Translations under genes and position numbers: made by a program
The notes under the pieces: generated by a model
Database searches by the model: none
Seen by the model: the letters and a program-made list of their open reading frames with translations, nothing else
What the model was told of the DNA's origin: nothing
Shown: positions 31,237-42,913 of the stretch, one piece after another
Numbering within the stretch: position 1 is the stretch's first letter
How the letters are laid out: every line of letters begins with the position of its first letter
NCBI GenBank assembly: GCA_964434865.1
Contig: CAYSWV010000011.1
Coordinates: 14,611 to 78,610 of the forward strand
Direction of reading: 5' to 3'
DNA length: 64,000 nucleotides
From: an uncultured bacterium
GTDB taxonomy: Bacteria; Cyanobacteriota; Cyanobacteriia; Thermostichales; Thermostichaceae

Positions 31237-31920
31237 ATGATCGACCAGGTTGACCACCAGCTGCGAGCGTGGGTGTTAACAGTCTTGGGTCCCGCTATGC
31301 CAGTCTCGCTAGCAGCACCTTCTGATTCAAGAGAGGGGCATGGAGTGAGTCTGTACCTTTTAGATGTCAAGCATCAGCCTCGGAGAACTGATAACCAGCA
31401 GATCGTGCTGCATTTGTCTCTCCTGTATCTAGTTACGACCTGGGCTGAAGAACCAGAGGAATCTCACCGACTCCTAGGTTTACTAATTCTGGCTGCATTG
31501 GAAACAGCTGACTTTGAGGTTCAACTTGATCCGATCCCAATTTCAAGCTGGGCTGCTCTTAAAGTCATACCTCAACCAGCTTTTTTAATGCGGTTGCCTT
31601 TGACCTATCGACAGCCTATGGGCAAAGTTCCGCGTGTGAAAACAATGCGACTACAATCCTCAATCCTGACTCAGTGGTACGGTCAAGTCTTAGACCCAAG
31701 TGATCAGCCCATTTCCCAAGCCAAGGTGGAAGTCCCCTCTCTACACTTAGAAACCTACACCAACATTGATGGCAATTTTCAGCTTGTGGCTGTGCCGCAG
31801 GGGGCTCTCATTCAAACCTTGAAAGTCCAGGTTTACGATCAGGACTTCTCAATTACGTTACCTGAACCTGCTACCCCTCATCACCCGATCATTGTTCGCT
31901 TAGAAGCGATGGAGGTCTAA
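31237..31920 (+). CDS. CIS cap/terminator-like protein (DUF4255 / Pvc16-Afp16 N-terminal domain) with C-terminal CarboxypepD_reg-like beta domain
   Basis: N-terminus MIDQVDHQLRAWVLTVLG...VSLAAP...GVSLYLLDV...LSLLYLVTTW fits the DUF4255 pattern. The C-terminus GQVLDPSDQPISQAKVEV...TNIDGNFQLVAVPQG looks like a carboxypeptidase-regulatory fold. Confidence 0.7.
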   Translation: MIDQVDHQLRAWVLTVLGPAMPVSLAAPSDSREGHGVSLYLLDVKHQPRRTDNQQIVLHLSLLYLVTTWAEEPEESHRLLGLLILAALETADFEVQLDPIPISSWAALKVIPQPAFLMRLPLTYRQPMGKVPRVKTMRLQSSILTQWYGQVLDPSDQPISQAKVEVPSLHLETYTNIDGNFQLVAVPQGALIQTLKVQVYDQDFSITLPEPATPHHPIIVRLEAMEV

Positions 31921-33147
31921 ATGCCAACTTATTTGACCCCTGGTGTATATATTGAAGAAGTCTCCTCTGGAACCCGACCTATAGAAGCCGTTGGAACCAG
32001 TACAGCTGGATTTGTAGGTGTAGCACCCAATCCGTCAGCTCATCACCATCAAGTCATTGCCATCAATAACTGGAGTCACTTTCTCCGAGAGTTCGTGTCG
32101 CCAGGATCTGAAAGTACATTCCTGTCATTAGCTGTCTTTGGCTTTTTTACAAATGGTGGCAGCCGTTGTTATGTCGTTAACTTAGGTCAAGATGGAGCTA
32201 TGACAGGGGATAGTCGGGGTCGCAAAGGACTAGACTTACTGGAAGCTATTGAAGACATTGCCATTGTGGCCGCTCCAGGTCTGTCAGATGCAGCGACCTA
32301 TGAAGCATTATTATCCCATTGTGAAAACCTCCACGATCGTGTTGCTATCCTAGATCCCCCTCCCCAGCTACAATCTATTGATCAACTTAAGCAAGTAGCG
32401 ATAGCTGGAGATTCGGCAGGTTCTGAAGGTTTAGCCACAACAGCAGTTACCCCAGGATTACGACCTCGACAGACTGATGGAGGGTATGGGGCGTTTTACT
32501 TTCCCTGGATCACGATTCGAGATCCATTGGCTACGCAGACAATGATTAATGCCCCTCCATCAGGCCATATAGCAGGTATTTACGCTCGCACCGATGCAAC
32601 TCGAGGTGTGCAGAAGGCACCTGCTAATGAGATCATTCGAGGGGTTCTAGATGTCACCTACCCAGTCACCCATGCCGAACAAGGGGAACTCAATCGTAGT
32701 GGTGTCAACTGTATTCGATTATTTGCAGGAGAAGGGATCCGAGTGTGGGGAGCTAGAACCCTAGCAGCAAGCAGTAGTGAATGGCGGTATCTGAACGTAC
32801 GACGCTTATTCAATATGATTGAAGCATCCATTATTAGAAGTACACGGTGGGTTGTCTTTGAACCTAATGCAGCTCCCCTCTGGAAGGCTATTCGCCGGGA
32901 TGTGAGTGCCTTTTTGACATTGTTATGGCGGCAAGGATCTCTAATGGGAGCTAGTCCGGAAGCCGCCTTTTTTGTGCAATGTGATGCCGAAACTAATCCA
33001 CCTGAGGTGATTGATGCTGGCATGGTCATTACTGTGATTGGCATTGCACCGATCAAACCAGCTGAATTTGTCATTTTCAAGATTAGTCAATCAGCCTCAG
33101 CAGCAGAATCTGAAACACCAGGTATGGAGGTAGCTAGCAATGTCTAA
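31921..33147 (+). CDS. Contractile tail sheath protein (Afp2-4/Cis2-like)
   Basis: Canonical N-terminus MPTYLTPGVYIEEV...GTSTAGFVGVAP. C-terminal IRVWGARTL...WRYLNVRRL...VFEPN...KPAEFVIF. Confidence 0.9.
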   Translation: MPTYLTPGVYIEEVSSGTRPIEAVGTSTAGFVGVAPNPSAHHHQVIAINNWSHFLREFVSPGSESTFLSLAVFGFFTNGGSRCYVVNLGQDGAMTGDSRGRKGLDLLEAIEDIAIVAAPGLSDAATYEALLSHCENLHDRVAILDPPPQLQSIDQLKQVAIAGDSAGSEGLATTAVTPGLRPRQTDGGYGAFYFPWITIRDPLATQTMINAPPSGHIAGIYARTDATRGVQKAPANEIIRGVLDVTYPVTHAEQGELNRSGVNCIRLFAGEGIRVWGARTLAASSSEWRYLNVRRLFNMIEASIIRSTRWVVFEPNAAPLWKAIRRDVSAFLTLLWRQGSLMGASPEAAFFVQCDAETNPPEVIDAGMVITVIGIAPIKPAEFVIFKISQSASAAESETPGMEVASNV

Positions 33148-33589
33148 TGGATTACGTACCGGTCATCGAACGGATCCTTACCGAGCTTATAATTTCAAAT
33201 TAGACATTTTAGGTGTCACGGAGGGACATTTTACAGCGTGTAGTGGGCTGGGTATCAAAGTTCATGCTATCCCTTACCGAGAAGGAGGTACCCGTGGTGT
33301 AATTCATCAGCTACCAGGTCGGGTTGCGTATGGGGATGTGACACTCCGATATGGCCTGACTGACTCTCGGTCGCTATGGGACTGGCTGATGAGTGCAGTT
33401 AGTGGCAAGGTGGTCCGGAAAAATGCTTCTGTGCTCTTGATGGCTAATGATGGTGTGACTGAAGTGATGCGGTGGGAGTTAATTGATGCCTGGCCGTCAG
33501 AATGGCGAGGGGCCCCGCTAGATACGTTAGCTCAAGAAGTTGCCATTGAATCTCTGACACTGGTCTTTGAAGAGTTGAAGCGAGCATAA
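33140..33589 (+). CDS. Tail tube protein (Afp1/5, T4 gp19-like)
   Basis: DPYRAYNFKLDILGV..GHFTACSGLG...YREGG. The start overlaps the sheath stop by 8 nt. Confidence 0.9.
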   Translation: MSNGLRTGHRTDPYRAYNFKLDILGVTEGHFTACSGLGIKVHAIPYREGGTRGVIHQLPGRVAYGDVTLRYGLTDSRSLWDWLMSAVSGKVVRKNASVLLMANDGVTEVMRWELIDAWPSEWRGAPLDTLAQEVAIESLTLVFEELKRA

Positions 33590-33594
33590 GTCTC

Positions 33595-34812
33595 ATGAAT
33601 ACCTTTAAGCGACAATTATTACTAGCTATTGCTCACACCTTACAACAATGGGCAAACGCACTCTTGAGCCTGACTGAAGCCTCTAAGTCCAACTGCAATT
33701 TAGAAGTTGGCTCAGTTGGTGGGCCACCTGCTCATTGGGTAGCACGGGTGCAATCGGCAGCCCCCCACCTCTTAGACCCAGACTTGCTTAACTTTACAGT
33801 AAAAGGCCCTCAATCAATCAATAGAGTAGATTTAATTTCAGAGACTGACCCTAACTCACCCATCCTGAAAACATCTATTGATCAACCTCTTAACCTAGCC
33901 CCAGATCAAAGAAGCCACTCACGCTACAGCCATAATCACGATCAGTTTAGTTACTCACTCCTTCAAAAGAGACGACCTCCCCTTCATGATTCTGTACCTC
34001 CACCTGTGACAACAACCCAGTGGGAACCAAGCGAGTACTCCGAGCCTAATGGTCAGGATGATCTTACTCAGCAGACTCATTCTTATAGGCCACCTCCTCC
34101 AATCTTTCAATCACCAGCCTACTCCCATGAATACAACCAGATTCTGGCAGCCGCGGTTCCTACTGTGTCGCCTCAGACCCAATTTCAACAACAGGAGCAG
34201 CAGTCTCTAATACAACAAGAGTCAAACTTAGACCGAACATCCTCTGAAAACTTACCACTCATTACACAGCTAGATCACTCAACGCCTCCTATTGCCATCA
34301 AACTGATCCCTCCTCCGGTAGGTTCAAACAGATCTCATCAAGTCCGATCTAGTCAGTCCTACTCTGAGGTTATCCCCCATGCAAAAGATACACAGATGCC
34401 TCAAAGGGATCGGCCTATCTTACCTGACTCGCTTCCCAAGCAAGTGGCTATCCAGGATAGTTACAATCAGCAAACAATGCCATATCCTGTGCATCAGGTA
34501 CAAGCCATTCGATCGACTGCAGTAAAAACAACCTTGAGGTCTCAACAATCCGGATTAAGCGTTAGCCGCCAATCGCTAGAGCCTGAGCTTTCCACTCACG
34601 ACCCAAAAACTGAACAGCCTGATCTGAATGAGGTATGCCTAGTCAACTATCACCCGTTTGTTACACCTGAGGTGTCACTTGAATCTATGTGGCCTTCACT
34701 GCCAGTAACCACTGATTCTGATCCTGCTACTTTCTGGCCAACCTTTTGGCACGCTCAGGACCATCAACAGATCTTAGACCAAGAACAAAGAGGTCAGCGA
34801 TGGAACGAGTAG
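33595..34812 (+). CDS. Q/P/S-rich low-complexity protein in the tape-measure/assembly position
   Basis: 405 aa. The N-terminal ~30 aa look helical, followed by >300 aa rich in Q, P and S. The C-terminus is aromatic (FWPTFWHAQDHQQ). It sits between the tube and Afp7-like genes, where P2/pyocin tails place the tape measure. Confidence 0.45.
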   Translation: MNTFKRQLLLAIAHTLQQWANALLSLTEASKSNCNLEVGSVGGPPAHWVARVQSAAPHLLDPDLLNFTVKGPQSINRVDLISETDPNSPILKTSIDQPLNLAPDQRSHSRYSHNHDQFSYSLLQKRRPPLHDSVPPPVTTTQWEPSEYSEPNGQDDLTQQTHSYRPPPPIFQSPAYSHEYNQILAAAVPTVSPQTQFQQQEQQSLIQQESNLDRTSSENLPLITQLDHSTPPIAIKLIPPPVGSNRSHQVRSSQSYSEVIPHAKDTQMPQRDRPILPDSLPKQVAIQDSYNQQTMPYPVHQVQAIRSTAVKTTLRSQQSGLSVSRQSLEPELSTHDPKTEQPDLNEVCLVNYHPFVTPEVSLESMWPSLPVTTDSDPATFWPTFWHAQDHQQILDQEQRGQRWNE

Positions 34813-35555
34813 CTTTTTTACTGGAACCTCTGGGACATCGTATTCCCTGTCTACTCAACCCTGAGAGTCTAGAAATTCGACGGTTAGCTGGACTACAGCC
34901 GTGCCGATCTATAACAGGTGAGATTAAAGGCATTGCTGACGATACGCTATTGTACACAGGTGGAGGCCAGACTGAACTTGATCTCAAATTGTTGTTTGAT
35001 ACTTCAGTTGCAGGAGCCTCAGTAGTTACAGAAGATGTGCGTGACCTCACTGGGCCGCTGTGGCAACTAGCAGAAAACCTAGTGAAGCCTGATCAGTCGC
35101 TGCAACCTCCAATTGTCCGGTTTATTTGGGGAAAGAGTTGGAATATTCCGGGTGTAGTAGCTGCTGTCGCTGAACGCTTGGAGGACTTTACCCGTACCGG
35201 TATTCCCCGGAGATCATGGATGCGAATGCGTTTTCTCCGAGTGCTGCCTTCCAAAGCTGAACGACAACCAGTTTCTTCAGTTGATCAAGTACAAGCTATT
35301 CTAGCGATTGAGTCACCAGGTAGTCTCAAACTAGATGTGCCAGATGAGCAAATTCAGCAGTATGAAGTTACTTACAACAGTAGACCTGACACCATCACTT
35401 CTGATCTAGGCTTGCCCCCCTGGTTATGGAAAGCCCTGATGATTTTCAATCACGTTGAGGATCCTTTACACTTGCCCCCTGGACAAATACTGCGAGTTCC
35501 TCCCCTTCCCTATCTATTGCAAATTCATGCCCGATCCTTGGGGGCCATGTCATGA
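34800..35555 (+). CDS. Afp7/Pvc7-like tube-initiator protein with degenerate C-terminal LysM
   Basis: Start at MERVAFLLEPLGHRIPCLLNPESLEIRR. GGGQTELDLKLLFD and PPIVRFIWGKSWNIPGVV...F fit the CIS tube-N / LysM protein pattern. The C-terminal ...PLHLPPGQILRVPP is LysM-like. Confidence 0.7.
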   Translation: MERVAFLLEPLGHRIPCLLNPESLEIRRLAGLQPCRSITGEIKGIADDTLLYTGGGQTELDLKLLFDTSVAGASVVTEDVRDLTGPLWQLAENLVKPDQSLQPPIVRFIWGKSWNIPGVVAAVAERLEDFTRTGIPRRSWMRMRFLRVLPSKAERQPVSSVDQVQAILAIESPGSLKLDVPDEQIQQYEVTYNSRPDTITSDLGLPPWLWKALMIFNHVEDPLHLPPGQILRVPPLPYLLQIHARSLGAMS

Positions 35556-37036
35556 AATCTATCGTAACCCTACCTCCACTTCAGGTTCAGGTTGCTGGAC
35601 ATTCATTGTTGCTAAGTGATCAGTGTCAACTCTTGGAAACTCGGATTCAACAGCGACTCTCCTTACCAACCCTTTGCGAAGTCAGGTTGTTAGTCACTGG
35701 GGATCATCAACCTAACTTAAGCTTGGGATCGGCATTAAATCTATCTCTACCTACACACCCAGCACCATTATTTATAGGACAGATCACAGCTGTTGAACAG
35801 ATTTACACTACCCAATATCAACGAGAGATCCGGATCCGGGGGTATGATCAGCTCTATCAACTGCGGCAAACGTCTACAACTGGTACGTATATCCAAGTGA
35901 CTGTTGCTGAACTGGCACAGGAGATGGTTACCAAGTTAGCCCTGGTGGTAGCTGCAACAGAATCAGGACCCTTGTGGGAACAAATCATTCAAGCTGGCCA
36001 GTCTGATGCTGAGTTACTGAGAACTATAACTGATCGATGTGGTCTTTATTTTACCCTTCGTCAACATGTGCTGCATCTATTCTCACTCAAAGGATTTGGC
36101 CCAGCCCAGCCCCTTCAGTTGGGAGATACCTTGGTTGAAGCTCGGATTGAATCCAACAGCGATCCAGTAACTACAGCGGTTTCGCTATTGGGTTGGAATC
36201 CTCAAAGTGTAGAGACTTACACCAGTCAAGCAGAACAGCTCGTACAACATTATCAGAAAAGCCATTACCAGCAACGCTCGCTGATTAATATGACAGTACA
36301 AGATCAAGGGCAAGCCGATGTATTTGCTCAACGTGAGTTGTCCTTACGTTCAGCTCAAGCGGTAACTTTGTGGGGAGTAGCCGTGGGTCAACCCGCCCTC
36401 CAGCCAGGGACACCTGTTGATATTGATGGAATGCCTGGATCCCCTTGTAGTCGCTTTGTTCTAACGTCGGTTAATCATCTAATCAATCCCCATCAAGGCT
36501 ATATTTCTGAGATTTCTTCAGTTCCTCCTCGATCCCATGATCGTTCTGAAGTGCCGACTCTAGCACCAGGAGTTGTCAGTGATGTTGATGATCCAGAGCA
36601 AGAGGGGCGTGTGAAAGTAACTCTGCCAACACTGCAGGATGTCGAATCTAGCTGGATGAAGGTCCTGTCTCCCTTAGCAGGGATGCAAAAGGGCTGGGTG
36701 GCTTTGCCAAATGTGGAAGATACTGTGTTGGTGATCTTTCCACAGGGTCTTTATACTCAGGGTATTATCCTTGGTTGTTTATATGGACCTGCAACTCAGC
36801 CAGATTGGGGCTTAGATCAGGGGCGGGTATGCCGCTACACTTTTGTAAGTCCAGGTCAACAACAAATACAGATTGATGATACCCAAGGTAAAGTGCGCCT
36901 AGAGAATGTCACGGGCAGTTATGTTGAGTTAAGACCGGAATGCTCAGTTGTTCATGCACAAGGAGATCTACAGTTAGAAGCTCCTAATCATACCGTCTGG
37001 ATTCGTGGACAATCGATTGAGTTCGAGAGAGCCTAA
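35552..37036 (+). CDS. Baseplate hub/spike (phage late control gpD + VgrG/gp5 OB-fold, Afp8-like)
   Basis: 494 aa. gpD-like N-terminal two thirds. C-terminal DDPEQEGRVKVTLP...SWMKVLSPLAG...WVALPNVEDTVLVIF matches the VgrG/gp5 OB-fold pattern. ATGA overlap with the upstream gene. Confidence 0.8.
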   Translation: MKSIVTLPPLQVQVAGHSLLLSDQCQLLETRIQQRLSLPTLCEVRLLVTGDHQPNLSLGSALNLSLPTHPAPLFIGQITAVEQIYTTQYQREIRIRGYDQLYQLRQTSTTGTYIQVTVAELAQEMVTKLALVVAATESGPLWEQIIQAGQSDAELLRTITDRCGLYFTLRQHVLHLFSLKGFGPAQPLQLGDTLVEARIESNSDPVTTAVSLLGWNPQSVETYTSQAEQLVQHYQKSHYQQRSLINMTVQDQGQADVFAQRELSLRSAQAVTLWGVAVGQPALQPGTPVDIDGMPGSPCSRFVLTSVNHLINPHQGYISEISSVPPRSHDRSEVPTLAPGVVSDVDDPEQEGRVKVTLPTLQDVESSWMKVLSPLAGMQKGWVALPNVEDTVLVIFPQGLYTQGIILGCLYGPATQPDWGLDQGRVCRYTFVSPGQQQIQIDDTQGKVRLENVTGSYVELRPECSVVHAQGDLQLEAPNHTVWIRGQSIEFERA

Positions 37037-37038: not shown

Positions 37039-37386
37039 ATGTACATCTTGACTGAAAATGCTGTGATGGTCTGTCAACATCGCCTCGGGTATGTGAATCT
37101 AGTTGCATCTCAGAACTGGGTCAAAATGGCAGGACAGAAGGTGTTAGTTGAACGAGATCCTGAGGGTAGACCTATAGGGGGCTGCCCCAACTATGGAGCT
37201 ACTATCAAGCCCTGTACATCAACACTAGCTGTGCACGTTGGCTACTCCAGCTTGATCAAAATTGCAGGTAGACGTGTCTGTTTGGATACAGTAAGAGGCC
37301 TTACAGACGGCACACCTCCTGGGACCGTGGAGTACGAAGTGAGTCAAGCTGGACAGTCTTTAGTTATAGAACGAGGACCATCATGA
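37039..37386 (+). CDS. PAAR-like / DUF4280-like spike tip protein (Afp10 position)
   Basis: 115 aa and Cys-containing (VCQH, GGCPN, KPCTS, RVCLD). It lies directly after the spike gene. Confidence 0.55.
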   Translation: MYILTENAVMVCQHRLGYVNLVASQNWVKMAGQKVLVERDPEGRPIGGCPNYGATIKPCTSTLAVHVGYSSLIKIAGRRVCLDTVRGLTDGTPPGTVEYEVSQAGQSLVIERGPS

Positions 37387-37790
37387 GTCGCTTTAATGCC
37401 TGGCAATTGGTGCCTCGTGACGGGTCATTGGCTGGATTCAGTCTTTCAGCTACAGGAGGGATGGCTACAGTTTCAGATCAGGCTTCTGTAAGGCAAGCCA
37501 TTCTACTCTTACTAGCCACTCGACGAGGGGAGCGGGTCATGCATCCTGAGTATGGCTGTGATCTTCATGATCTAGTGTTTGCACCTAATGATGATACAAC
37601 AGCAGGACTGGCCATTTACTACGTCCGGCAAGCTTTAGAACGTTGGGAACCCCGAGTTACTATTCTGCAACTAGATGCCAGACAAGATCCAGAACAACCA
37701 ACTCAGCTCCAGATTATCCTTGACTATCAATTACGTACCCCGAGTTCGCCGGAACGACTAGTCTTTACCCTGGATCTCACAGGAGGCTAA
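37383..37790 (+). CDS. Baseplate wedge protein gp25/GPW (Afp9-like)
   Basis: SVRQAILLLLATRRGERVMHPEYGCDLHDLVFAPN is the canonical GPW/gp25 motif. Confidence 0.9.
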   Translation: MSRFNAWQLVPRDGSLAGFSLSATGGMATVSDQASVRQAILLLLATRRGERVMHPEYGCDLHDLVFAPNDDTTAGLAIYYVRQALERWEPRVTILQLDARQDPEQPTQLQIILDYQLRTPSSPERLVFTLDLTGG

Positions 37791-37794
37791 CAGC

Positions 37795-40317
37795 ATGTCA
37801 CTCCCCTCGCCTAATTTAGATGATCGGACCTTTGATCAATTGGTGGCAGAGGCCAAACGACGTGTTAGGCAAACCTGTCCCCAGTGGAGTGACTTATCAC
37901 CCAGCGATCCAGGATGGGCTTTGTTAGAGTTATTTGCCTACTTAACCGAGATCATGCTGTATCGGCTTAATCAAGTACCGACTAAAGCTTACATTGAATT
38001 TTTAAAACTGATCGGGGTAACATTACATCCACCTAGTGCGGCCAGTGTAGAGCTTAAGTTTTATTTAACCCAGCCCCGAGAGCATCCGGTCATGATCGAA
38101 AGAGGGACACGAGTGACTGTGGCTCGTGCGAGGGCAGCAGCTAATGCTCCAGTCTTTATCACTGACCATAGCGTAACTATTCCTGCTGGACAAACAGATG
38201 CTAGAGTAACCGCTCATCACTGCGAGCAGATTGAAGCTGAGTTAGTGGGGTATGGGACAGGTCAACCAGGTTTATCCTTACAGGCTCAACAGCCACCTTT
38301 GATAGCACCTACAGGTGATCCACTGGATTTATTAGTTGGGATCGAAACCGACCCAGACGAACTGGATACTCACTACCGCTCAGTGACCCATCAGGGTAGA
38401 TGCTTTCAGATCTGGCAGGAAGTTGAAACCTTTGCCAATCAAGCCCCAACCACATGTATTTACACAGTTGATCGCTATAACGGGCGGATCACGTTTGCCC
38501 CTTGTGTGCCCTCCTCTGCTGACAAGGATCCCTTTTCACCTAAGGTACCGTTAGAAAACCGTGAGGTCCGCTTGTGGTATCGCTGTGGGGGAGGTCCTGC
38601 AGGGAATGTTGCAGCTGATACTTTGACAGTTTTGAAAGATTCACTACCTGGTGTTCATGTGACCAACCCAGAGGCTGCTACTGGGGGCCGAGTGGCTGAA
38701 ACGTTAGATCAAGCGCTGATTCGAGGGCCACTGGAGTTTCGATCACTAGAGAGAGCTGTCACCGCCAGCGATTATGAATTATTGGCACTCAAGAGCTCTG
38801 GAGCAGTCAGCCGGGCCAGAGCCTTCACCCAAAAGCAGTATTGGACTTATGCTCAGCCTGGCACTGTGGAAGTTTTATTAATTCCAACACTACCTGATAA
38901 TTTAACAGCGGCGGTTCAAACCAGTGCAGAACAGTATCAAGCCGCGGCCACCGAAGAGAGTCGGAATCAAGTGCAGCAAGCGTTACACCTGCGTCGTCCA
39001 TTGGGAACAACCTGTTTGGTCCATTGGGCCCGCTTAAAAACAGTAACGGTCAAAGCCCTGATTGTTGTGCATCGAGGTGAAGATCGACAAGCTGTTCAAT
39101 CGAGAGTATTACATCGTTTGTATCAAGCCATTAACCCAACCGTGTGGGAATTTGGACAACCCTTACGCGAAGATCGAATTTATAACATCATTGGTCAAGA
39201 ACCTGGTGTGCGTTACACCGAACAAGTCCGGTTTAGAGTCAATGAAGCGCCTGATCAACACGTCAAACTCCTAACAATGGATCCTAATCAGCCACGGACA
39301 TGCTACGCAGCATCTGGGCACACCCTATTTCGATCTATGAATAACGGAGACAGTTGGGAGTTAGTGAAGCGGTTTCCGGAACAGGTAATCAAAGTCATTG
39401 AAGCTCATCCAGCCATTCCAGGTCTAGTGGCTATAGCCACCTGTCAACCACAAACTTCTCAGCTGCATTTTTCGCAAGACTGTGGTGAAACTTGGGTGGC
39501 TGGCCCTCAAATGGCTTTTCAAGTTGAAGATCTAGCTTGGGTCTTACACTCAGATCGGCGGCCCATTTTACTCTTAGCGACTACAGTAGGGCTTTATGCA
39601 TTGCCAACTTTAGCTGGTGCTGATTTAGTCCAAGTCTTAGTAGATCCGACAGACCAGGATCGGGGGTTTTATGCTGTGGTCACGTCGGAAGATGCTCGTG
39701 GTTTGATCAATGTCGCTGTTGCCGCTCAGGGAATGGGTGGTGTGTATCTCTCTAGTGAAGCAGGGTACTCAGGTACTTTCAGCCCGATTGGGTTGCTAGG
39801 AGAAGATATCCGTGTCTTGGAGATTCAGAAACAGGGTCCACGACAATTTTTATGGGCGGGCAGCTATGTTGCCGGTAATGAAATGGGGCGGGGCTGTTTT
39901 CGGTGGGAATTACCTCACTCAGTAGAAGGGTGGCAGTCGTTTCAGTCAGGCTGGTCGGGTGGTAGTTGTCGGTCGCTGACATTCCGTGAATCCAACGTGA
40001 TCGCTGGTACCTATTTTTCGGGGATTCTCACCCTAGATTCCAGTAGAAGTGAGGCTAACTGGCAGACCTCAACCATGCGATGTGGCTTACCTATTCGGGA
40101 TCAAGAACATAATTTCTATCCGATTGAGGCTGTAGGGTACACGGCTAGTCCTGAGAGTGTCGGGTTGGTTGCTGGTCCTGAAGGGATCTATCGCAGCTTG
40201 GATGAAGGTAGTAGCTACCACTATTGTTCTGGACAAGAGTTCAATGACAAAGTGATGTTGCCAGAGTCTTGGTTGTTTTGTTCTGGACAGCATGAAATTG
40301 AGGTTAAGAGCGAATGA
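37795..40317 (+). CDS. Baseplate J-like protein (Afp11/gp6-like) with ~340-aa C-terminal Asp-box (BNR) propeller-like extension
   Basis: N-terminus LDDRTFDQLVAEAKRR...WSDLSPSDPGWALLELFAY is typical of eCIS gpJ. The C-terminal region contains SMNNGDSW, SQDCGETW and SLDEGSSY (S-x-D-x-G-x-T/S-W/Y). Confidence 0.8.
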   Translation: MSLPSPNLDDRTFDQLVAEAKRRVRQTCPQWSDLSPSDPGWALLELFAYLTEIMLYRLNQVPTKAYIEFLKLIGVTLHPPSAASVELKFYLTQPREHPVMIERGTRVTVARARAAANAPVFITDHSVTIPAGQTDARVTAHHCEQIEAELVGYGTGQPGLSLQAQQPPLIAPTGDPLDLLVGIETDPDELDTHYRSVTHQGRCFQIWQEVETFANQAPTTCIYTVDRYNGRITFAPCVPSSADKDPFSPKVPLENREVRLWYRCGGGPAGNVAADTLTVLKDSLPGVHVTNPEAATGGRVAETLDQALIRGPLEFRSLERAVTASDYELLALKSSGAVSRARAFTQKQYWTYAQPGTVEVLLIPTLPDNLTAAVQTSAEQYQAAATEESRNQVQQALHLRRPLGTTCLVHWARLKTVTVKALIVVHRGEDRQAVQSRVLHRLYQAINPTVWEFGQPLREDRIYNIIGQEPGVRYTEQVRFRVNEAPDQHVKLLTMDPNQPRTCYAASGHTLFRSMNNGDSWELVKRFPEQVIKVIEAHPAIPGLVAIATCQPQTSQLHFSQDCGETWVAGPQMAFQVEDLAWVLHSDRRPILLLATTVGLYALPTLAGADLVQVLVDPTDQDRGFYAVVTSEDARGLINVAVAAQGMGGVYLSSEAGYSGTFSPIGLLGEDIRVLEIQKQGPRQFLWAGSYVAGNEMGRGCFRWELPHSVEGWQSFQSGWSGGSCRSLTFRESNVIAGTYFSGILTLDSSRSEANWQTSTMRCGLPIRDQEHNFYPIEAVGYTASPESVGLVAGPEGIYRSLDEGSSYHYCSGQEFNDKVMLPESWLFCSGQHEIEVKSE

Positions 40318-40853
40318 GACGTACTGAGATTGCGCAGTTACTCCCTACAATCTTTCAACAAACGTTACAAGATGGATCGATTCTCTGGGTTATTCTAGAG
40401 GTGATGGAAGCTATGCACGCTCCTTCTGAAGCCGCCTTAACCCAACTTGACGCTTTTTTTGATCCACGTCGAACACCGGCTACCTGGTTACCCTACCTAG
40501 CCTATTGGCTCAATCTGGATCGACTGTTTAATCCCTCAGCTACATCTGGAGACTCAGCTCCACTACTTTCAACTGGCACAGGACCTCTGCGGGAATTGAT
40601 GGCTCAGGCTGCTTATCTGTCAAATTGGCGGGGCACAGCCCAGGGATTAATTGTATTTTTAGAAACAGCTACCAATACTAAGGGGTTTGGTGTTGAGGAA
40701 CTAGTCTTCAACCCTGAGCATAATCAACTGTGTCCCTTTCACATTAAGGTTGTGGCCCCCTCTTCTACACAAGCTCACCAGGTTTTAATTGAACGGATTA
40801 TTAACTCTGAAAAACCTGCTCATGTGACCTACGAATTAGTATTTGATTCATAA
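40314..40853 (+). CDS. Phage tail protein I-like baseplate protein (P2 gpI / Afp12-like)
   Basis: LLPTIFQ...LLDAFFDPRRTPATWLPYLAYWL...WRGTAQGL fits the TIGR02242-type tail protein pattern. ATGA overlap with gpJ. Confidence 0.7.
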   Translation: MRRTEIAQLLPTIFQQTLQDGSILWVILEVMEAMHAPSEAALTQLDAFFDPRRTPATWLPYLAYWLNLDRLFNPSATSGDSAPLLSTGTGPLRELMAQAAYLSNWRGTAQGLIVFLETATNTKGFGVEELVFNPEHNQLCPFHIKVVAPSSTQAHQVLIERIINSEKPAHVTYELVFDS

Positions 40854-40868
40854 ATAGAGGTTCAAGTA

Positions 40869-42419
40869 ATGGCTCACCTTTTTTCGATATCGACCACTCA
40901 ACCCCAAGCTTATTTGGATGGCCAGGGTCAAGGAGAAGTCTCCTTTGTAGTAACCAATACTACGGCTTATCCAATTAAAGGCCGTCTTGCAATTAAACCC
41001 CTAGGCTCAACTGATCCCAGCTGGCTACGGCTAATTGGAGATACAGAACGAAACTTTGCTAGTAACACAGCAGAACAAATCACTGTAACAATAAACCTGC
41101 CGGCAGACACTCCACTGGGCACTTATAGCTTTCGCTTAGATGTCATCTCTGTTTTGAATCCTGATGAAGACTATACGGAAGGTCCAGCGGTAGCGATGGA
41201 AGTGCAGTCCAGTCCAGTTGAGCAGTCAGCTTTCCCCTGGTGGATTCTGGTGGTTGTGGGTGTTCTAATAACAGTAGGAGGTGTTTTAGCTTATGTCTTT
41301 TGGCCTCGTTCCACCTTTGAGCCTGAAGATTTAGTGGGTCTATCTATTGCTCAGGCTGAGAACATTTTAGAGCAAGAAAGATTAGAGGCTGTGATCAGCA
41401 ATGAATTGATCAGGGTTTGTGATCCAGACTCAGCAACACCTCATCAGGTAGTCTCAGCTAATTACATCAATGACAGTCAAGTTGAAGTTGTTGTGGCCAG
41501 CTGGGATCCACAAGAGTTAGTGGGTTTAACTCAAGATGAAGCTACCCAATGCCTAGATCCACATCAATGGACATTAGCTGTCCAAGATCAGCCGATCATC
41601 CTCTGTGACTCGCTTGAATCTCTGCCTAATCAGATTCTTGAAGTGGGTGACATTGATCAGACACAGGTGGATGTTGTTGTTGCAAGCTGGAATCCTGAAG
41701 AGTTACTAGGAATGCACAAAGATGAGGCCCAAGCCTGCCTAGCAGCTCATGATTTAACATTGACAGCCGCAGAGAAACCCATCACCCTTTGTACTAACGG
41801 CACTCACACTCCTGATCACATTGTTCAGATCCAAGACTCGTCCTCAACTACAGTGAATGTTGTAGTTGAAGCTACCACATCTGTTCAGGTGCCTAGAGTT
41901 AAGGATTTGCCTTATCAGCAAGCTCAGAGACAACTGGAAGAGTGCTCACTGCAATGGTCGATTAACGAAGTCTATCCGTCATTCAGTGCCAGTGATATTG
42001 CTATTGATCCTGGGACCGTAGTTAAACAAACTCACCTGGGACAGACTGTGAACCCTAATCAAGTGATCACTTTAGATGTAGTTGCCAGCAAAACTTTTCA
42101 TAATCCCAGACGCAATAACCAGTTCAATACCTCACTGGGCATATGGCTATCTAACACCAATGGCAATCAGTATTGTAAAGAGCATGGAGGATCCAAGATG
42201 ATTAGCCATACAGTCGGCTGCGGTGAAGACGAAAGCTCCTATGTTGAATTTAAAAATGGTAAGTGGCTTTCTAAAAGTAGTGGGAGTACTAACCAGTGTT
42301 ACGATATCTTCAAATCTATCACTTGTGATGTTGGCATCGATCCGTCTAGATTCCAGCCTGGCGATATTGAACACATAAAGTTGGAAAACTCGCTATTGAA
42401 TAGAATTATTTCTGAATGA
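40869..42419 (+). CDS. Single-pass membrane protein: N-terminal Ig-like domain, TM helix, 4 PASTA-like repeats, Cys-containing C-terminal domain (in the tail-fibre slot)
   Basis: No signal peptide. TM at aa 122-146 (FPWWILVVVGVLITVGGVLAYVFWP). Three 62-aa repeats at aa 151-212, 213-274 and 275-336 (P-E/Q-E-L-V-G-L..DEA..CL....TL......I.LC....P..I......V.VVVASW), plus a fourth PASTA-like unit at aa 340-407. The C-terminal ~110 aa contain four Cys. Confidence 0.6.
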   Translation: MAHLFSISTTQPQAYLDGQGQGEVSFVVTNTTAYPIKGRLAIKPLGSTDPSWLRLIGDTERNFASNTAEQITVTINLPADTPLGTYSFRLDVISVLNPDEDYTEGPAVAMEVQSSPVEQSAFPWWILVVVGVLITVGGVLAYVFWPRSTFEPEDLVGLSIAQAENILEQERLEAVISNELIRVCDPDSATPHQVVSANYINDSQVEVVVASWDPQELVGLTQDEATQCLDPHQWTLAVQDQPIILCDSLESLPNQILEVGDIDQTQVDVVVASWNPEELLGMHKDEAQACLAAHDLTLTAAEKPITLCTNGTHTPDHIVQIQDSSSTTVNVVVEATTSVQVPRVKDLPYQQAQRQLEECSLQWSINEVYPSFSASDIAIDPGTVVKQTHLGQTVNPNQVITLDVVASKTFHNPRRNNQFNTSLGIWLSNTNGNQYCKEHGGSKMISHTVGCGEDESSYVEFKNGKWLSKSSGSTNQCYDIFKSITCDVGIDPSRFQPGDIEHIKLENSLLNRIISE

Positions 42420-42913
42420 ATCGATCTAAGATTGTGATTATAAGTTTAACGGTTTTGGCTCTGGCCTTTGGTTTGAGCATTGGCCTCAGTGGCCTTAACC
42501 TGCATCGCAATGATGAGATTACAGCAGACGATTATGCTCAACGAGGTCAGTTTCCAGAGTGGATCAGCACTATTGGGGATCTAGTCGTCCCTTTCGGTCC
42601 GAGAGTGAAGCAGCTCCCACCGCTTATTGAGATCGACCCACTCTCCCAATCTAACAAACGCATATTGATCAAACCGGCAACAGCTTCTTTTCGAGTAGCT
42701 AGTTTCAAATTAGTCTCAGGCCAAAGGATTAAAATCGATTACCAAGATCAGTCGACCAACGCTGAAACTTATGAGTTAGAAGCACAGAGTTTTTCGTTAC
42801 CCAAGGAGCAGGGGCGAAATCGCCAGTCTGGATCCATCGTAATCCTCTCAGAGGGGGGACAGCTAACCTTAACTTGTTATGGTCACCAGGTTTGTCAGGT
42901 GCAGTTAAATTAA
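42416..42913 (+). CDS. Small membrane-anchored/secreted hypothetical protein, translationally coupled to the PASTA protein
   Basis: 165 aa. N-terminal hydrophobic anchor IVIISLTVLALAFGLSIGL. ATGA overlap with the upstream gene. Confidence 0.45.
   Translation: MNRSKIVIISLTVLALAFGLSIGLSGLNLHRNDEITADDYAQRGQFPEWISTIGDLVVPFGPRVKQLPPLIEIDPLSQSNKRILIKPATASFRVASFKLVSGQRIKIDYQDQSTNAETYELEAQSFSLPKEQGRNRQSGSIVILSEGGQLTLTCYGHQVCQVQLN

What the first reader, a model, noticed from the sequence alone, without database searches (positions are those of the whole stretch)
31237..42913. Complete contractile-injection-system operon with no ATPase, fibre or toxin genes in the window
Twelve co-directional genes are joined by ATGA or 8-13 nt overlaps (33140/33147, 34800/34812, 35552, 37383, 40314, 42416). 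They encode a DUF4255 cap, sheath, tube, a Q/P-rich protein, an Afp7-like LysM protein, a gpD/VgrG spike, a PAAR-like tip, gp25, gpJ and gpI, which together make a full tail plus baseplate. I see no capsid, portal, terminase or integrase genes, so this is not a prophage. I see no TssJLM, TssK or ClpV genes, so it is not a T6SS. Within at least 10 kb on either side there is no Afp15/Cis15-type AAA+ ATPase, no classical tail fibre and no recognisable toxin or effector. The distal genes instead encode membrane-anchored proteins. CIS loci are known in cyanobacteria, including a thylakoid-anchored form reported in Anabaena. Any novelty would therefore lie in the accessory and anchoring module and in the minimal gene set.
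Basis: partly seen in the sequence, partly recalled or inferred. Interest (0 to 1): 0.85.

Follow-up and report, generated by a model that had tools for sequence, protein, structure and literature searches.

The report
Minimal ATPase-less contractile injection system
This cyanobacterial locus encodes a complete phage-tail-like injection machine. It belongs to a widespread, apparently unstudied branch related to the Streptomyces "suicide" systems, and it lacks the usual ATPase but carries its own set of three membrane proteins.

Summary
Twelve co-directional, translationally coupled genes at 31237-42913 encode a cap, sheath, tube, a Q/P/S-rich protein, a Cis7-like protein, a VgrG spike, a 115-aa tip candidate, gp25, gpJ/Cis11, a short gpI/Cis12 and two membrane-anchored proteins. 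The 64-kb window holds no Cis15-type AAA+ ATPase and no phage head, integrase or T6SS genes.

The unit is really 13 genes. The convergent six-helix membrane protein at 42941-43630 belongs to it.

The cassette is not unique to this window. At least 549 species representatives from more than ten phyla carry the same Cis11, and the 80 fetched loci are syntenic and also lack the ATPase.

Its nearest characterised relative is the Streptomyces cytoplasmic CIS (type IId), not the Anabaena thylakoid-anchored CIS.

The "PASTA" protein has an N-terminal beta-sandwich, one transmembrane helix and a variable glycan-binding C-terminus. It is a remote homologue of the Streptomyces Sco4256-4258 CIS "effectors" (hhalign E 4e-6). 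"No effector" is therefore only partly right.

Most likely it is an intracellular CIS coupled to the cytoplasmic membrane that acts on the producer's own envelope. That mechanism is inferred, not shown.

Verdict: new variant of a known kind, moderately high interest.

The parts
31237..31920 (+). Cap / tail terminator (Cis16-like), 227 aa: a Pvc16_N (DUF4255) domain followed by a C-terminal carboxypeptidase-regulatory-like beta-sandwich.
   Evidence: Pfam Pvc16_N 1.6e-6 (28.4 bits, cutoff 27); CarbopepD_reg_2 2.3e-7 (31.2 bits, below its 32.2 cutoff). Present in 61 of 65 related loci with enough upstream flank.
31921..33147 (+). Contractile sheath (Cis2), 408 aa. A minimal sheath that lacks the ~140-aa insertion domain of the Streptomyces sheath.
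   Evidence: Pfam Phage_sheath_1 and 1C. Best PDB match is the CIS-Sc sheath 8bky/9gtp, 9.6e-108. PVC, Afp and Anabaena sheaths reach only about 1e-55.
33140..33589 (+). Inner tube protein (Cis1/Cis5-like), 149 aa. It is the only gp19-family tube gene in the locus.
   Evidence: Pfam Phage_T4_gp19 2.3e-34; NCBIfam TIGR02241 8e-36; CIS5_fam 8e-32, below its cutoff.
33595..34812 (+). Q/P/S-rich 405-aa protein in the tape-measure position. Its termini are conserved and its low-complexity middle varies. Candidate length-determining or lumen protein.
   Evidence: No Pfam, NCBIfam or PHROG match. Composition 11% each of Q, P and S. Only residues ~36-62 and ~360-404 are conserved by phmmer. An iterated HMM finds the family at the same position in 58 of 65 loci, lengths about 320-550 aa. 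The tape-measure role is inferred.
34800..35555 (+). Cis7-like tube initiator / baseplate hub protein, 251 aa from the ATG at 34800. A TTG at 34746 is an alternative start.
   Evidence: Pfam CIS_tube 5e-11. The LysM match is only E 0.1 and not significant. Homologues of 247-268 aa favour the 34800 start.
35552..37036 (+). VgrG/gpD-gpV spike (Cis8), 494 aa, with no C-terminal effector extension.
   Evidence: Pfam Phage_base_V 1e-20 and Phage_GPD 9e-10; NCBIfam VgrG_rel 1e-39.
37039..37386 (+). 115-aa protein in the Cis10 (spike-tip) position. It is lineage-specific and has a conserved Cys/His set.
   Evidence: Present in 65 of 65 loci. C12, H14, C49 and C59 are invariant and C81 nearly so. No PAAR or DUF4280 match in Pfam, NCBIfam, PHROGs or the PDB, even with a profile. 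No counterpart in the two Streptomyces IId loci. The tip role is inferred.
37383..37790 (+). gp25-like baseplate wedge / sheath initiator (Cis9), 135 aa.
   Evidence: Pfam GPW_gp25 4e-25.
37795..40317 (+). Cis11 (gpJ/gp6-like baseplate wedge), 840 aa: a CIS-Sc-type core (about residues 1-490) fused to a C-terminal beta-propeller (about 490-840).
   Evidence: Pfam Baseplate_J; TIGR02243 1e-79. The profile scores 2.2e-90 against the CIS-Sc Cis11 chain of 9gtp. In the AF2 model the C-terminal part has pLDDT around 90. Foldseek finds the 9gtp Cis11 chain at 5.5e-22 and GH74/BNR propellers at about 1e-10. More than 1391 full-length homologues at about 50% identity.
40314..40853 (+). Short Cis12 (gpI-like baseplate wedge), 179 aa.
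   Evidence: Pfam Tail_P2_I 1e-5; TIGR02242 5e-13. Best PDB hit is the 190-aa CIS-Sc baseplate chain 9gtp_E, E 7.6e-4, so the short form is shared with Streptomyces.
40869..42419 (+). Bitopic membrane protein, 516 aa. It has a conserved N-terminal beta-sandwich (1-~118), an FPWW motif plus TM helix (~123-144), three ~62-aa PASTA-like repeats, one canonical PASTA domain (339-404) and a 4-Cys C-terminal domain. Sco4256-like CIS partner, either an 'inside-out fibre' or an effector.
   Evidence: PASTA 5.7e-12. The N-domain plus TM is conserved in 49 of 52 loci, while C-termini vary: PASTA in 39 of 85 members, also Kelch, PD40, F5/8-C and DUF346. Loci carry 1-4 tandem copies. hhalign of the N-domain profile against the Sco4256-family profile gives 86.9% probability, E 4.2e-6, 97 columns. 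Repeats are shown.
42416..42913 (+). 165-aa protein with an N-terminal signal-anchor helix and a ~135-aa predicted extracytoplasmic domain. Conserved accessory component.
   Evidence: No database family. An iterated HMM finds the family in 46 of 52 loci with downstream flank, almost always next to the adaptor genes.
42941..43630 (-). 229-aa six-helix integral membrane protein, convergent with the operon.
   Evidence: E 1e-33 to 1e-70 in 47 of 52 loci with flank, usually immediately downstream and convergent. Only 529 clusters at 50% identity among 1.84 billion representatives; the 150 listed are 175-334 aa. No Pfam or PHROG family. AF2 pLDDT 88.9. No PDB fold match better than E 0.076. Invariant polar residues include Q82, K148, N165, H186, S195/T197/D198 and W212. 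Absent from Streptomyces IId loci.

Best explanation
The locus is a functional-looking, chromosomally resident member of a widespread 13-gene contractile injection system cassette. This cassette is a distinct, ATPase-less sister of the Streptomyces-type (IId) cytoplasmic CIS.

Ten genes build a minimal particle: cap, short sheath, one tube protein, a Q/P/S-rich lumen or tape-measure-like protein, a Cis7 hub, a VgrG spike with a small Cys/His tip protein, and a gp25 / Cis11 / short-Cis12 wedge.

Three genes build a dedicated membrane module:
- a bitopic Sco4256-like protein, with a cytoplasmic beta-sandwich that I infer docks on the baseplate (perhaps on the Cis11 propeller) and PASTA repeats on the periplasmic side;
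- a small signal-anchored protein;
- a novel six-helix membrane protein.

The inferred mechanism is as follows. The particle assembles in the cytoplasm without a Cis15 ATPase. It is coupled to the inner face of the cytoplasmic membrane through the bitopic protein, which acts as an 'inside-out tail fibre'. It then fires once through the producer's own envelope. By analogy with CIS-Sc, this would cause regulated cell death or lysis, possibly in response to the cell-wall state read by the PASTA ectodomain.

Shown: gene content, synteny, conservation, the closest relatives, and the domain architectures.
Inferred: topology, docking, the trigger and the biological outcome.
For: The nearest solved relatives are Streptomyces CIS-Sc proteins: sheath 9.6e-108, Cis11 profile 2.2e-90, Cis12 7.6e-4. 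PVC, Afp, AlgoCIS and Anabaena score far lower.

At least 549 GTDB species representatives encode this Cis11. The 80 fetched loci come from Cyanobacteria, Chloroflexota, Acidobacteriota, Myxococcota, Verrucomicrobiota, Gemmatimonadota, Proteobacteria, Planctomycetota and Actinomycetota, and they are syntenic. Of 49 loci with both flanks, 38 have all 13 genes, and each gene is present in at least 88% of loci with the relevant flank.

No classical AAA ATPase was found in the window or in 84 loci of up to ±10 kb, four of which duplicate others. The positive control on a real Cis15 scored 2.8e-15. Pfam annotation of four loci also shows none.

The adaptor family has a conserved N-domain plus TM and a variable glycan-binding C-terminus, with 1-4 paralogues per locus. 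It is a remote homologue of the Sco4256 family. Sco4256 is found in purified particles. Sco4256-4258 are needed for filled tubes and for CIS-mediated cell death in Streptomyces (PMC10020575; PMC10066040).

CIS-Sc firing needs a membrane protein, CisA, which is encoded at the same post-Cis12 position (PMC12237407).

The six-helix protein family is small (529 clusters), shows no fusion among the 150 listed members, and sat beside the cassette in 47 of 52 loci with enough downstream flank.

The GC content of the cassette (0.445-0.496) matches that of its flanks. Together with the Cyano-1 RNA, this fits a resident cyanobacterial locus.
Against: - There are no expression, imaging or genetic data for any member of this lineage.
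- The rest of the genome could not be searched, so a distant Cis15 cannot be excluded.
- The positive-inside bias around the TM helix is weak (mean K+R 1.95 on the N side, 1.52 on the C side). The N-in/C-out topology rests mainly on the lack of a signal peptide and on PASTA domains being extracytoplasmic elsewhere.
- Homology to Sco4256 holds at the domain-superfamily level. The same domain also occurs as a repeat in giant Deinococcus kinases, so a shared function is not proven.
- The Sco4256 proteins are interpreted in the literature as cargo, not as anchors.
- The GH74/BNR-like propeller on Cis11 could instead be a glycan receptor-binding domain of a released particle.
- No CisA homologue was detected.
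Confidence: 0.5

Rival explanations
1. Sco4256-like cargo model. The 516-aa protein (and its paralogues elsewhere) is not an anchor. It is the payload: a membrane-inserting toxin loaded into or onto the particle through its N-terminal beta-sandwich. On firing it is delivered into the producer's own membrane or a neighbour's, where the TM helix and glycan-binding domain cause damage. The six-helix protein and the 165-aa protein would then act as immunity factors or chaperones.
For: - Remote homology and identical layout to Sco4256-4258.
- Those proteins are toxic in E. coli, their deletion leaves tubes empty, and the deletion phenocopies CIS mutants (PMC10066040).
- Sco4256 is detected in purified particles (PMC10020575).
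- Variable C-termini and tandem paralogues are typical of effector diversification.
- A tightly linked small membrane protein family fits an immunity role.
Against: - Kelch and PD40 propeller C-termini are too large to sit folded in a tube lumen of about 4 nm. That lumen size is my own knowledge of CIS tubes.
- PASTA domains and the 4-Cys C-terminal domain point to export by the cell's own Sec/YidC route, not to cytoplasmic storage.
- No Cis15 ATPase is present. Cis15 is the factor linked to cargo loading in PVC (cited in PMC12210884).
- The N-domain is conserved like a fibre's baseplate-attachment domain, and the gene sits in the fibre position.
Confidence: 0.25
2. Released, fibre-less tailocin/eCIS. 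Particles are set free by lysis and bind target cells directly through the six or more copies of the Cis11 GH74/BNR-like propeller, which replace the tail fibres. The three membrane proteins are a lysis or release module, not part of the firing mechanism. Killing is by puncture alone, as for R-type pyocins, which also need no ATPase and carry no toxin.
For: - The Cis11 C-terminus is a confident beta-propeller resembling carbohydrate-active GH74/BNR enzymes and lectins.
- There is no ATPase and no toxin domain, as in R-type bacteriocins (PMC12210884).
- The cassette moves between phyla and sits on plasmids, as competition weapons often do.
Against: - The Pvc16_N cap, the CIS_tube hub and the closest relatives are all of the eCIS/cytoplasmic-CIS type, not the pyocin type. 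The pyocin sheath scores only 1e-15.
- No endolysin, holin or spanin family is detected.
- The adaptor N-domain is conserved and co-inherited with the baseplate genes across phyla, which is unexpected for a lysis module.
- Its nearest characterised relatives stay inside the cell.
Confidence: 0.15
3. T6SS-like contact-dependent weapon. The particle is held at the cytoplasmic membrane by the membrane module. It fires outward across the envelope into a neighbouring cell and delivers the spike, the tip protein and the Q/P/S-rich protein. It is single-use because no ClpV-like recycling ATPase is present.
For: - Three dedicated membrane proteins are conserved with the cassette.
- The PASTA ectodomain could fix the complex to peptidoglycan.
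- Vladimirov et al. argue that a membrane-bound Streptomyces particle is long enough to reach a neighbouring cell (PMC10020575).
Against: - There is no TssJLM/K-like trans-envelope complex and no outer-membrane component.
- There is no effector domain on VgrG or on the tip protein.
- The cassette occurs unchanged in monoderm-like Chloroflexota and Actinomycetota and in diderms. That is hard to reconcile with one trans-envelope architecture.
Confidence: 0.1

Closest known systems
Streptomyces coelicolor cytoplasmic CIS (CIS-Sc, eCIS subtype IId; PDB 8bky, 9gtp; PMC10066040, PMC10020575, PMC12237407)
   Same: - Best-matching sheath (9.6e-108, about 60% identity in the C-terminal core by eye from the printed alignment), Cis11 core (2.2e-90) and short ~180-190-aa Cis12.
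- Same gene order from sheath to Cis12.
- No conventional fibre and no typical Afp14.
- A single-pass membrane protein is encoded directly after Cis12.
- A linked family of beta-sandwich / TM / lectin proteins (Sco4256-4258) is remotely homologous to the window's 516-aa protein.
   Different: - The window locus and its relatives have no Cis15 ATPase. Streptomyces needs Cis15 for function.
- One tube gene instead of two.
- The sheath lacks the ~140-aa insertion.
- Cis11 carries an extra ~350-aa beta-propeller.
- No CisA homologue.
- The Sco4256-like N-region has one beta-sandwich, not two.
- The six-helix protein, the 165-aa protein, the 115-aa tip candidate and the Q/P/S-rich protein have no counterpart in two Streptomyces IId loci.
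Roseiflexus / Deinococcota cytoplasmic CIS clade within IId (PMC12998442)
   Same: Related IId-type systems in Chloroflexota and Deinococcota. They are free in the cytoplasm, contract only in lysed cells, and have no close CisA homologue. Roseiflexus carries several Sco4256 homologues.
   Different: The Roseiflexus cluster includes an ATPase gene. I made no direct sequence comparison with it.
Anabaena thylakoid-anchored CIS (tCIS, all3313-all3327; PDB 7b5h; PMC8894136)
   Same: It is a cyanobacterial CIS. It is anchored to a membrane from inside the cell by a protein with a transmembrane helix encoded after the baseplate genes, and it is linked to stress-induced ghost-cell formation.
   Different: - It belongs to a different lineage: sheath 3.4e-55 and Cis11 2.4e-4.
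- tCIS has 15 genes, including the Cis13 fibre trimer, the Cis19 crown, an extended Cis12, Cis16A/B, Cis6 and DUF4157 effectors. None of these is present here.
- The PASTA ectodomain here points to the periplasm rather than the thylakoid lumen. That is an inference.
Afp / PVC-type extracellular CIS
   Same: Pvc16_N cap, CIS_tube hub, VgrG, gp25, gpJ and gpI modules, and the overall eCIS-superfamily gene set.
   Different: No Afp15/Pvc15 ATPase, no Afp13 fibre, no recognisable Afp14, no Afp6, only one sheath gene, and no toxin genes with known domains. Sheath similarity is only about 1e-55.
R-type pyocins / tailocins
   Same: No AAA+ ATPase, no toxin payload and a minimal sheath of about 400 aa.
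   Different: The cap is of the Pvc16_N type and the hub of the CIS_tube type. There are no fibres and no lysis cassette. The pyocin sheath scores only 1e-15.

Membership tests
eCIS/CIS superfamily (Afp/PVC/PLTS-like) | Contractile sheath plus gp19-type tube | tested here: met
   Pfam Phage_sheath_1/1C and Phage_T4_gp19.
eCIS/CIS superfamily (Afp/PVC/PLTS-like) | Pvc16_N (DUF4255) tail terminator | tested here: met
   PF14065, 28.4 bits against a cutoff of 27. PMC10020575 names it as a hallmark.
eCIS/CIS superfamily (Afp/PVC/PLTS-like) | VgrG, gp25, gpJ and gpI baseplate plus a CIS_tube hub | tested here: met
eCIS/CIS superfamily (Afp/PVC/PLTS-like) | AAA+ ATPase (Afp15/Cis15), said to be 'invariably' encoded in eCIS regions | tested here: not met
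   No PF00004-type protein in 64 kb. None in 84 related loci of up to ±10 kb, with a positive control at 2.8e-15. The rest of the genome was not searchable.
eCIS/CIS superfamily (Afp/PVC/PLTS-like) | Tail fibre (Afp13) and tape measure (Afp14) | tested here: inconclusive
   No fibre family was detected. The 405-aa Q/P/S-rich protein sits in the tape-measure position and has conserved termini, but matches no family.
Streptomyces-type cytoplasmic CIS (subtype IId) | Sheath and Cis11 cluster with CIS-Sc | tested here: met
   By score only: 364 and 307 bits against at most 194 and 38 bits for other solved CIS. No tree was built.
Streptomyces-type cytoplasmic CIS (subtype IId) | Sco4256-family protein (beta-sandwich, TM helix, optional lectin or toxin domain) | tested here: met
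   hhalign of profile A5 against A6: 86.9% probability, E 4.2e-6, 97 columns. tblastn alone found nothing. This is remote homology.
Streptomyces-type cytoplasmic CIS (subtype IId) | CisA (Sco4242) membrane adaptor | tested here: not met
   No similarity between the adaptor profile and the S. clavuligerus post-Cis12 protein. No Cys-rich or zinc-ribbon protein is present in the locus.
Streptomyces-type cytoplasmic CIS (subtype IId) | Cis15 ATPase required for function; two tube paralogues | tested here: not met
   The window has one gp19-type gene only.
Streptomyces-type cytoplasmic CIS (subtype IId) | Cytoplasmic location and stress-induced cell death | not testable with these tools
   Needs cryo-ET and genetics.
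Anabaena thylakoid-anchored CIS (tCIS) | Cis13 TM fibre, Cis19 crown, extended Cis12, bipartite cap (Cis16A/B), DUF4157 effectors | tested here: not met
   There are only 13 genes. Cis12 is 179 aa, there is a single cap gene, and Pfam finds no DUF4157. All3325 scores 3.4e-55 and All3317 2.4e-4. Direct homology to Cis13 or Cis19 was not tested.
Type VI secretion system (T6SS i-iii) | TssJLM membrane complex, TssK, TssA, ClpV | tested here: not met
   None was found in the Pfam scans of the window. gp25 hits the TssE model below its cutoff.
Prophage / prophage remnant | Capsid, portal, terminase, integrase next to the tail genes | tested here: not met
   None in 64 kb, and the flanks are housekeeping genes. 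No related locus shows conserved phage genes.

The most novel reading that the evidence does not exclude
This 13-gene cassette could define a separate mode-of-action class of CIS. It would be a minimal, ATPase-independent particle wired to the cytoplasmic membrane by 'inside-out tail fibres'. These are bitopic proteins whose conserved cytoplasmic beta-sandwich sits on the baseplate and whose exchangeable periplasmic domain (PASTA, Kelch, PD40, discoidin) reads the state of the cell wall or envelope. A dedicated six-helix membrane protein of a new fold family would act as gate, receptor or safety catch. It would work as an envelope-damage- or infection-triggered self-puncturing device across more than ten phyla. 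These include Gram-negative bacteria and cultivable multicellular or social bacteria such as the myxobacteria.
Probability: 0.25. Interest if true: 0.8.

Novelty: new variant of a known kind. Interest (0 to 1): 0.62.

Why it matters
- Current catalogues and reviews treat the AAA+ ATPase as an invariable hallmark of eCIS-type loci (PMC10020575).
- One metagenome screen uses Cis15 to sort CIS from phage tails and pyocins (PMC12210884). Another screen requires at least ten recognisable core genes (PMC8213781). A third sets fibre-less loci aside (PMC12923769).
- A cassette with only eight or nine recognisable core genes, no ATPase and no fibre is therefore likely to be under-counted.
- Here it turns up in at least 549 species representatives, conserved at about 50% identity across phyla, with three dedicated membrane proteins. 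One of those belongs to a family with no known relatives or fold match.
- It offers a natural minimal system for two open questions from the Streptomyces work: how an intracellular CIS finds and fires at a membrane, and whether Sco4256-type proteins are cargo or anchors.
- Several carriers are cultivable: Archangium, Myxococcus, Corallococcus, Ktedonobacter, Dictyobacter, Leptolyngbya and Marinobacterium.
- A 13-gene, ATPase-free particle would also be a compact chassis for engineering.

Tried and rejected
- A single-protein scan of genome contigs with Cis11 found nothing. The alignment-based scan worked.
- An exact look-up of the window's Cis11 found no contig, and cluster members carried no names. 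The host was therefore inferred only from the Cyano-1 RNA and from the nearest homologues being cyanobacterial.
- A word-indexed protein search with the adaptor N-domain returned only two hits. This left no deep alignment of the adaptor for structure prediction.
- PAAR test: phmmer and a 28-sequence profile against the PDB, plus Pfam at E 10, NCBIfam and PHROGs, all came back negative. I therefore do not call the protein PAAR.
- LysM on Cis7 is not significant.
- Foldseek of the six-helix protein gave only generic helix-bundle matches to the membrane domains of CDF zinc transporters (E 0.076, TM about 0.5-0.58). I rejected this as evidence of function.
- The promoter and terminator scan found fewer promoter-like sites than shuffles and nothing convincing.
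- All-against-all clustering of flank ORFs found no further gene conserved beyond the 13. Several clusters were antisense artefacts of high-GC genomes.
- A single-sequence hhalign against the S. clavuligerus Sco4256 homologue was not significant (E 0.1). Only the profile-profile comparison was.
- tblastn of the N-domain against plasmids hit no Streptomyces record.
- Literature searches combining 'contractile injection system' with 'PASTA domain', or 'contractile injection' and 'Cis11' with 'propeller', returned nothing.
- The 223-aa 'AAA family ATPase' next to the cassette on the Deinococcus plasmid is ParA/MinD-like, not Cis15.
- The kinase with an AAA_16 domain at the end of the window is a STAND-type protein, not Cis15.

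Full report

Yes.

The junctions, read from the sequence, are:
- the cap stop codon abuts the sheath ATG at 31921;
- an 8-nt overlap at 33140/33147;
- a 13-nt overlap at 34800/34812 (ATGGAACGAGTAG);
- ATGA overlaps at 35552, 37383, 40314 and 42416;
- the remaining gaps are 2-15 nt.

Profile searches identify:
- a Pvc16_N/DUF4255 cap with a carboxypeptidase-regulatory-like C-terminal domain;
- a 408-aa sheath;
- a gp19-type tube protein;
- a CIS_tube (Cis7-like) protein;
- a GPD plus base_V spike;
- gp25;
- an 840-aa Baseplate_J protein (TIGR02243, 1e-79);
- a 179-aa Tail_P2_I protein;
- a 516-aa protein with a PASTA domain.

The 405-aa protein is 11% each of Q, P and S.

LysM on the Cis7-like protein scores E 0.1. 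The 'PAAR-like' 115-aa protein has no match in Pfam, NCBIfam, PHROGs or the PDB, even with a 28-sequence profile. That protein does carry invariant C12, H14, C49 and C59, which would fit a metal-stabilised spike tip. This is inference only.

**2. What is absent?**

I Pfam-scanned almost all ORFs of at least 100 aa in the 64 kb, including the ORF that runs off the 3' end.
- There is no PF00004-type AAA+ ATPase, capsid, portal, terminase, integrase, TssJLM/K or ClpV.
- The only P-loop proteins are ABC transporter subunits and a Ser/Thr kinase with an AAA_16 (STAND-type) domain at 60468 to beyond 63998.
- A classical AAA-domain query found nothing in the window. The same query detects the Cis15 of a Streptomyces clavuligerus CIS locus at 2.8e-15, so the negative result is meaningful.
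- The flanks are ordinary chromosomal genes: a pentameric ligand-gated channel, glycosyltransferases, a GH1 enzyme, a baeRF protein, a globin, an HlyD-like protein, CapB/CapC-like genes, ABC transporters and a tRNA-Ala.
- A Cyano-1 RNA at 57967-58029 passes the Rfam gathering threshold. This supports a cyanobacterial host.
- The GC content of the cassette matches its surroundings.

**3. The locus is one copy of a widespread, conserved cassette.**

- The Cis11 protein has more than 1391 full-length homologues at about 50% identity.
- The 80 best loci come from Cyanobacteria (Xenococcaceae, Elainellales, Leptolyngbya sp. AN02str), Chloroflexota (Ktedonobacter, Dictyobacter, Chloroploca), Acidobacteriota, Myxococcota (Myxococcus, Archangium, Corallococcus, Hyalangium, Vitiosangium), Verrucomicrobiota, Gemmatimonadota, Gamma- and Betaproteobacteria, Desulfobacterota, Planctomycetota and Actinomycetota.
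- The cassette also sits on plasmids of Deinococcus sp. AJ005 and Paracoccus. Rhodovulum plasmids have matches to the sheath and to the adaptor.
- Gene order is the same in nearly all loci.
- Among loci with enough flank, each gene is present in at least 88%. Of 49 loci with both flanks, 38 have all thirteen genes.
- All-against-all clustering of flank ORFs found no other conserved neighbour.
- The AAA query found no Cis15 within up to ±10 kb in any of 84 loci, four of which duplicate others.

**4. The unit has thirteen genes and a three-protein membrane module.**

(a) *The post-Cis12 adaptor protein.*
- It has a conserved N-terminal region of about 115 aa, an FPWW motif and a strongly hydrophobic helix. 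These are shared across phyla at E 1e-20 to 1e-56.
- The C-terminus varies. Pfam finds PASTA in 39 of 85 members, and Kelch, PD40, F5/8-type-C or DUF346 in others.
- Sixteen of 61 loci carry two to four tandem paralogues.
- In the window the C-terminus holds three ~62-aa PASTA-like repeats, one canonical PASTA domain and a 4-Cys domain.

(b) *The 165-aa signal-anchored protein.* An iterated HMM shows it to be a conserved family, present in 46 of 52 loci.

- It is as conserved as the structural genes (E 1e-33 to 1e-70) and is present in 47 of 52 loci. It lies mostly immediately downstream and convergent, and sometimes upstream.
- The family has only 529 clusters at 50% identity among 1.84 billion representatives. 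The 150 best listed are 175-334 aa long and none shows a fused domain.
- It has no Pfam or PHROG family, and sources call it 'hypothetical'.
- AlphaFold gives a confident six-helix bundle (pLDDT 88.9) with no convincing PDB neighbour. The best match is E 0.076 to the membrane domains of CDF zinc transporters.
- It has invariant polar residues inside its predicted helices.

The Q/P/S-rich protein keeps only its termini (residues ~36-62 and ~360-404). Its length ranges from about 320 to 550 aa across loci. This fits a tape-measure or lumen protein, but that role is inferred.

**5. Closest known system.**

- By sequence against all solved structures, the sheath matches Streptomyces CIS-Sc best: 8bky/9gtp at 9.6e-108 and 8bl4 at 5.8e-105. 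PVC, Afp and Anabaena All3325 follow at about 1e-55, and the pyocin sheath at 1e-15.
- The alignment shows that the window's sheath lacks the ~140-aa insertion of the Streptomyces protein.
- The Cis11 profile scores 2.2e-90 against CIS-Sc Cis11. It scores 3.8e-9 against AlgoCIS and 2.4e-4 against Anabaena All3317.
- Foldseek on the AF2 model agrees. It also shows that residues ~490-840 form a beta-propeller like those of GH74/BNR enzymes.
- The short Cis12 is shared with CIS-Sc (190-aa chain 9gtp_E).
- The right comparator is therefore the cytoplasmic CIS of Streptomyces (subtype IId) and its Chloroflexota/Deinococcota relatives (PMC10066040, PMC10020575, PMC12237407, PMC12998442). It is not the 15-gene Anabaena tCIS with its Cis13 fibre, Cis19 crown and DUF4157 effectors (PMC8894136).

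**6. The 'missing effector'.**

- Casu et al. describe Sco4256-4258 as proteins with a highly similar N-terminus, one transmembrane domain and a C-terminal domain. In Sco4257 and Sco4258 that domain is a carbohydrate-binding ricin-type fold. The proteins are toxic in E. coli, are needed for filled tubes, and their deletion phenocopies CIS mutants.
- Vladimirov et al. find Sco4256 in purified particles. They describe its first domain as PapD/transglutaminase-like and report homologues in IId loci of filamentous Cyanobacteria and Chloroflexi.
- This is the same architecture as the window's 516-aa protein family.
- I fetched a S. clavuligerus IId locus and eight further Sco4256-family N-regions from plasmids.
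- tblastn and profile-versus-single-sequence comparisons were negative.
- The profile-profile comparison gave 86.9% probability and E 4.2e-6 over 97 columns. It aligns the shared N-x-(T/S), W, P-x-G-x-Y and (N/E)-P-(D/E) positions.
- I conclude remote homology at the domain level. This domain is also a repeat in giant Deinococcus kinases.
- 'No recognisable effector' is literally true for toxin-domain searches. However, the locus does encode the counterpart of the proteins that the Streptomyces literature calls effectors.
- No similarity to the CisA-like protein was found.
- The six-helix protein, the 165-aa protein, the 115-aa protein and the Q/P/S-rich protein have no counterpart in two Streptomyces IId loci.

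**7. How it most likely works.**

*Shown:* a complete, intact, translationally coupled tail-plus-baseplate gene set; three co-inherited membrane proteins; no linked ATPase in the window or in any of the 84 fetched loci.

*Inferred:*
- The particle assembles without Cis15. In Streptomyces and Photorhabdus, particles of normal appearance form without the ATPase (PMC10020575), so ATPase-free assembly is plausible.
- The adaptor has no signal peptide, and its C-terminal domains are extracytoplasmic types. It should therefore sit N-in/C-out. The positive-inside signal is only weak.
- Its conserved N-domain and exchangeable C-domain mirror the logic of tail fibres, and the gene sits in the fibre position.
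- I therefore favour an 'inside-out fibre' that couples the baseplate to the inner face of the cytoplasmic membrane, possibly through the lineage-specific Cis11 propeller. By analogy with CIS-Sc and CisA, firing would then pass through the producer's own envelope and cause regulated death or lysis.
- The PASTA repeats suggest that the state of the peptidoglycan could be the cue.

*Confidence:* about 0.9 that this is a CIS of the lineage described, and about 0.5 for the membrane-coupled, self-directed mechanism.

*Rivals:*
- The adaptor is cargo, as proposed for Sco4256 (0.25).
- A released, fibre-less tailocin that binds targets through the Cis11 propeller (0.15).
- A single-shot, T6SS-like weapon against neighbours (0.1).

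**8. Novelty and score.**

- The kind of system (CIS, nearest to IId) is known. The Sco4256-type partner has been noted in a few cyanobacterial and Chloroflexi IId loci.
- I could not find the following described anywhere in the searched literature: a conserved 13-gene cassette without the 'invariable' ATPase, with a propeller-bearing Cis11, a single tube gene, a lineage-specific tip protein and a dedicated six-helix membrane protein, spread over at least 549 species.
- Catalogue pipelines require at least ten recognisable core genes, use Cis15 as a discriminator, or set fibre-less loci aside. Under-reporting is therefore plausible.
- Some members may nevertheless sit unremarked in dbeCIS or eCIStem under IId. 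I could not check this.
- I rate it a new variant of a known kind, with interest 0.62. It is not a new principle. It is a large, tractable and apparently unstudied branch that bears directly on how intracellular CIS engage membranes.

Noticed in passing
window 42941-43630 (-): A 229-aa six-helix membrane protein belongs to a compact orphan family: 529 clusters at 50% identity among 1.84 billion representatives, no Pfam family and no PDB fold neighbour. It appears to exist only next to this CIS cassette. It has invariant polar residues within its predicted helices (Q82, K148, N165, H186, S195/T197/D198).
   Followed up: yes
window 57967-58029 (+): A Cyano-1 RNA motif scores above the Rfam gathering score (45.1 bits against 41). 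It supports a cyanobacterial origin for the window.
   Followed up: partly
window 19206-20201 (+): A prokaryotic pentameric ligand-gated ion channel (GLIC/ELIC-like): Neur_chan_LBD 1.7e-24 plus Neur_chan_memb 7e-14.
   Followed up: no
window 27130-29425 (+): A DUF2267 protein is followed by a bacterial archaeo-eukaryotic release-factor-like protein (baeRF family 7/3, 3e-47). This pairing is often discussed in conflict or ribosome-rescue contexts. It lies about 2 kb upstream of the CIS cap gene but is not conserved with the cassette elsewhere.
   Followed up: no
window 60468 to beyond 63998 (+): A large ORF (more than 1177 aa, running off the window) encodes a Ser/Thr protein kinase fused to an AAA_16 (STAND-type) NTPase domain. 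It is the only 'AAA'-labelled protein in the window other than ABC transporter subunits, and it is not Cis15-like.
   Followed up: partly
window 43953-47647 (+): An HlyD-like protein is followed by a Mur-ligase/CapB-like protein and a CapC-like protein. This looks like a poly-gamma-glutamate-type capsule synthesis set, directly downstream of the CIS module. It is not conserved with the cassette in other loci.
   Followed up: no
window 13039-15345 (-): Two adjacent paralogous genes (372 and 361 aa) carry DUF3443 / aspartyl-protease-like domains.
   Followed up: no
window 20198-22999 (-): A 933-aa protein has only a C-terminal CAAX/Rce1-like intramembrane protease domain. The large N-terminal part matches no family.
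   Followed up: no
L002/L014 1-2320 (-) and 17258-20399: In a Chloroflexia MAG, a second and different sheath / tube / T4_baseplate cluster lies divergently just upstream of the cassette. TIR and SLATT/DUF4231 defence-type genes lie just downstream.
   Followed up: no
L087 (Deinococcus sp. AJ005 plasmid p96k) 13287-25982: The complete cassette, including a PASTA adaptor, the small anchored protein and the six-helix protein, is carried on a 96-kb plasmid. Neighbouring genes include a ParA-like ATPase, toxin-antitoxin genes and an integrase. Paracoccus and Rhodovulum plasmids also carry sheath and adaptor matches. These plasmids are likely vehicles for the cross-phylum spread.
   Followed up: partly
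L094, L095, L097 (Deinococcus plasmids): The Sco4256-type N-terminal beta-sandwich domain also occurs as an internal repeat in giant proteins of about 1600 aa, one of which (L097) is annotated as a protein kinase. The domain is therefore not exclusive to CIS partners.
   Followed up: no
L088 (Streptomyces cadmiisoli plasmid) 14499-30032: In this IId-like Streptomyces cluster no ATPase gene is listed between the cap and the sheath. The PLSDB gene table is incomplete, so this is unverified. A Sco4256 homologue lies about 13 kb beyond the end of the fetched region (L096).
   Followed up: no
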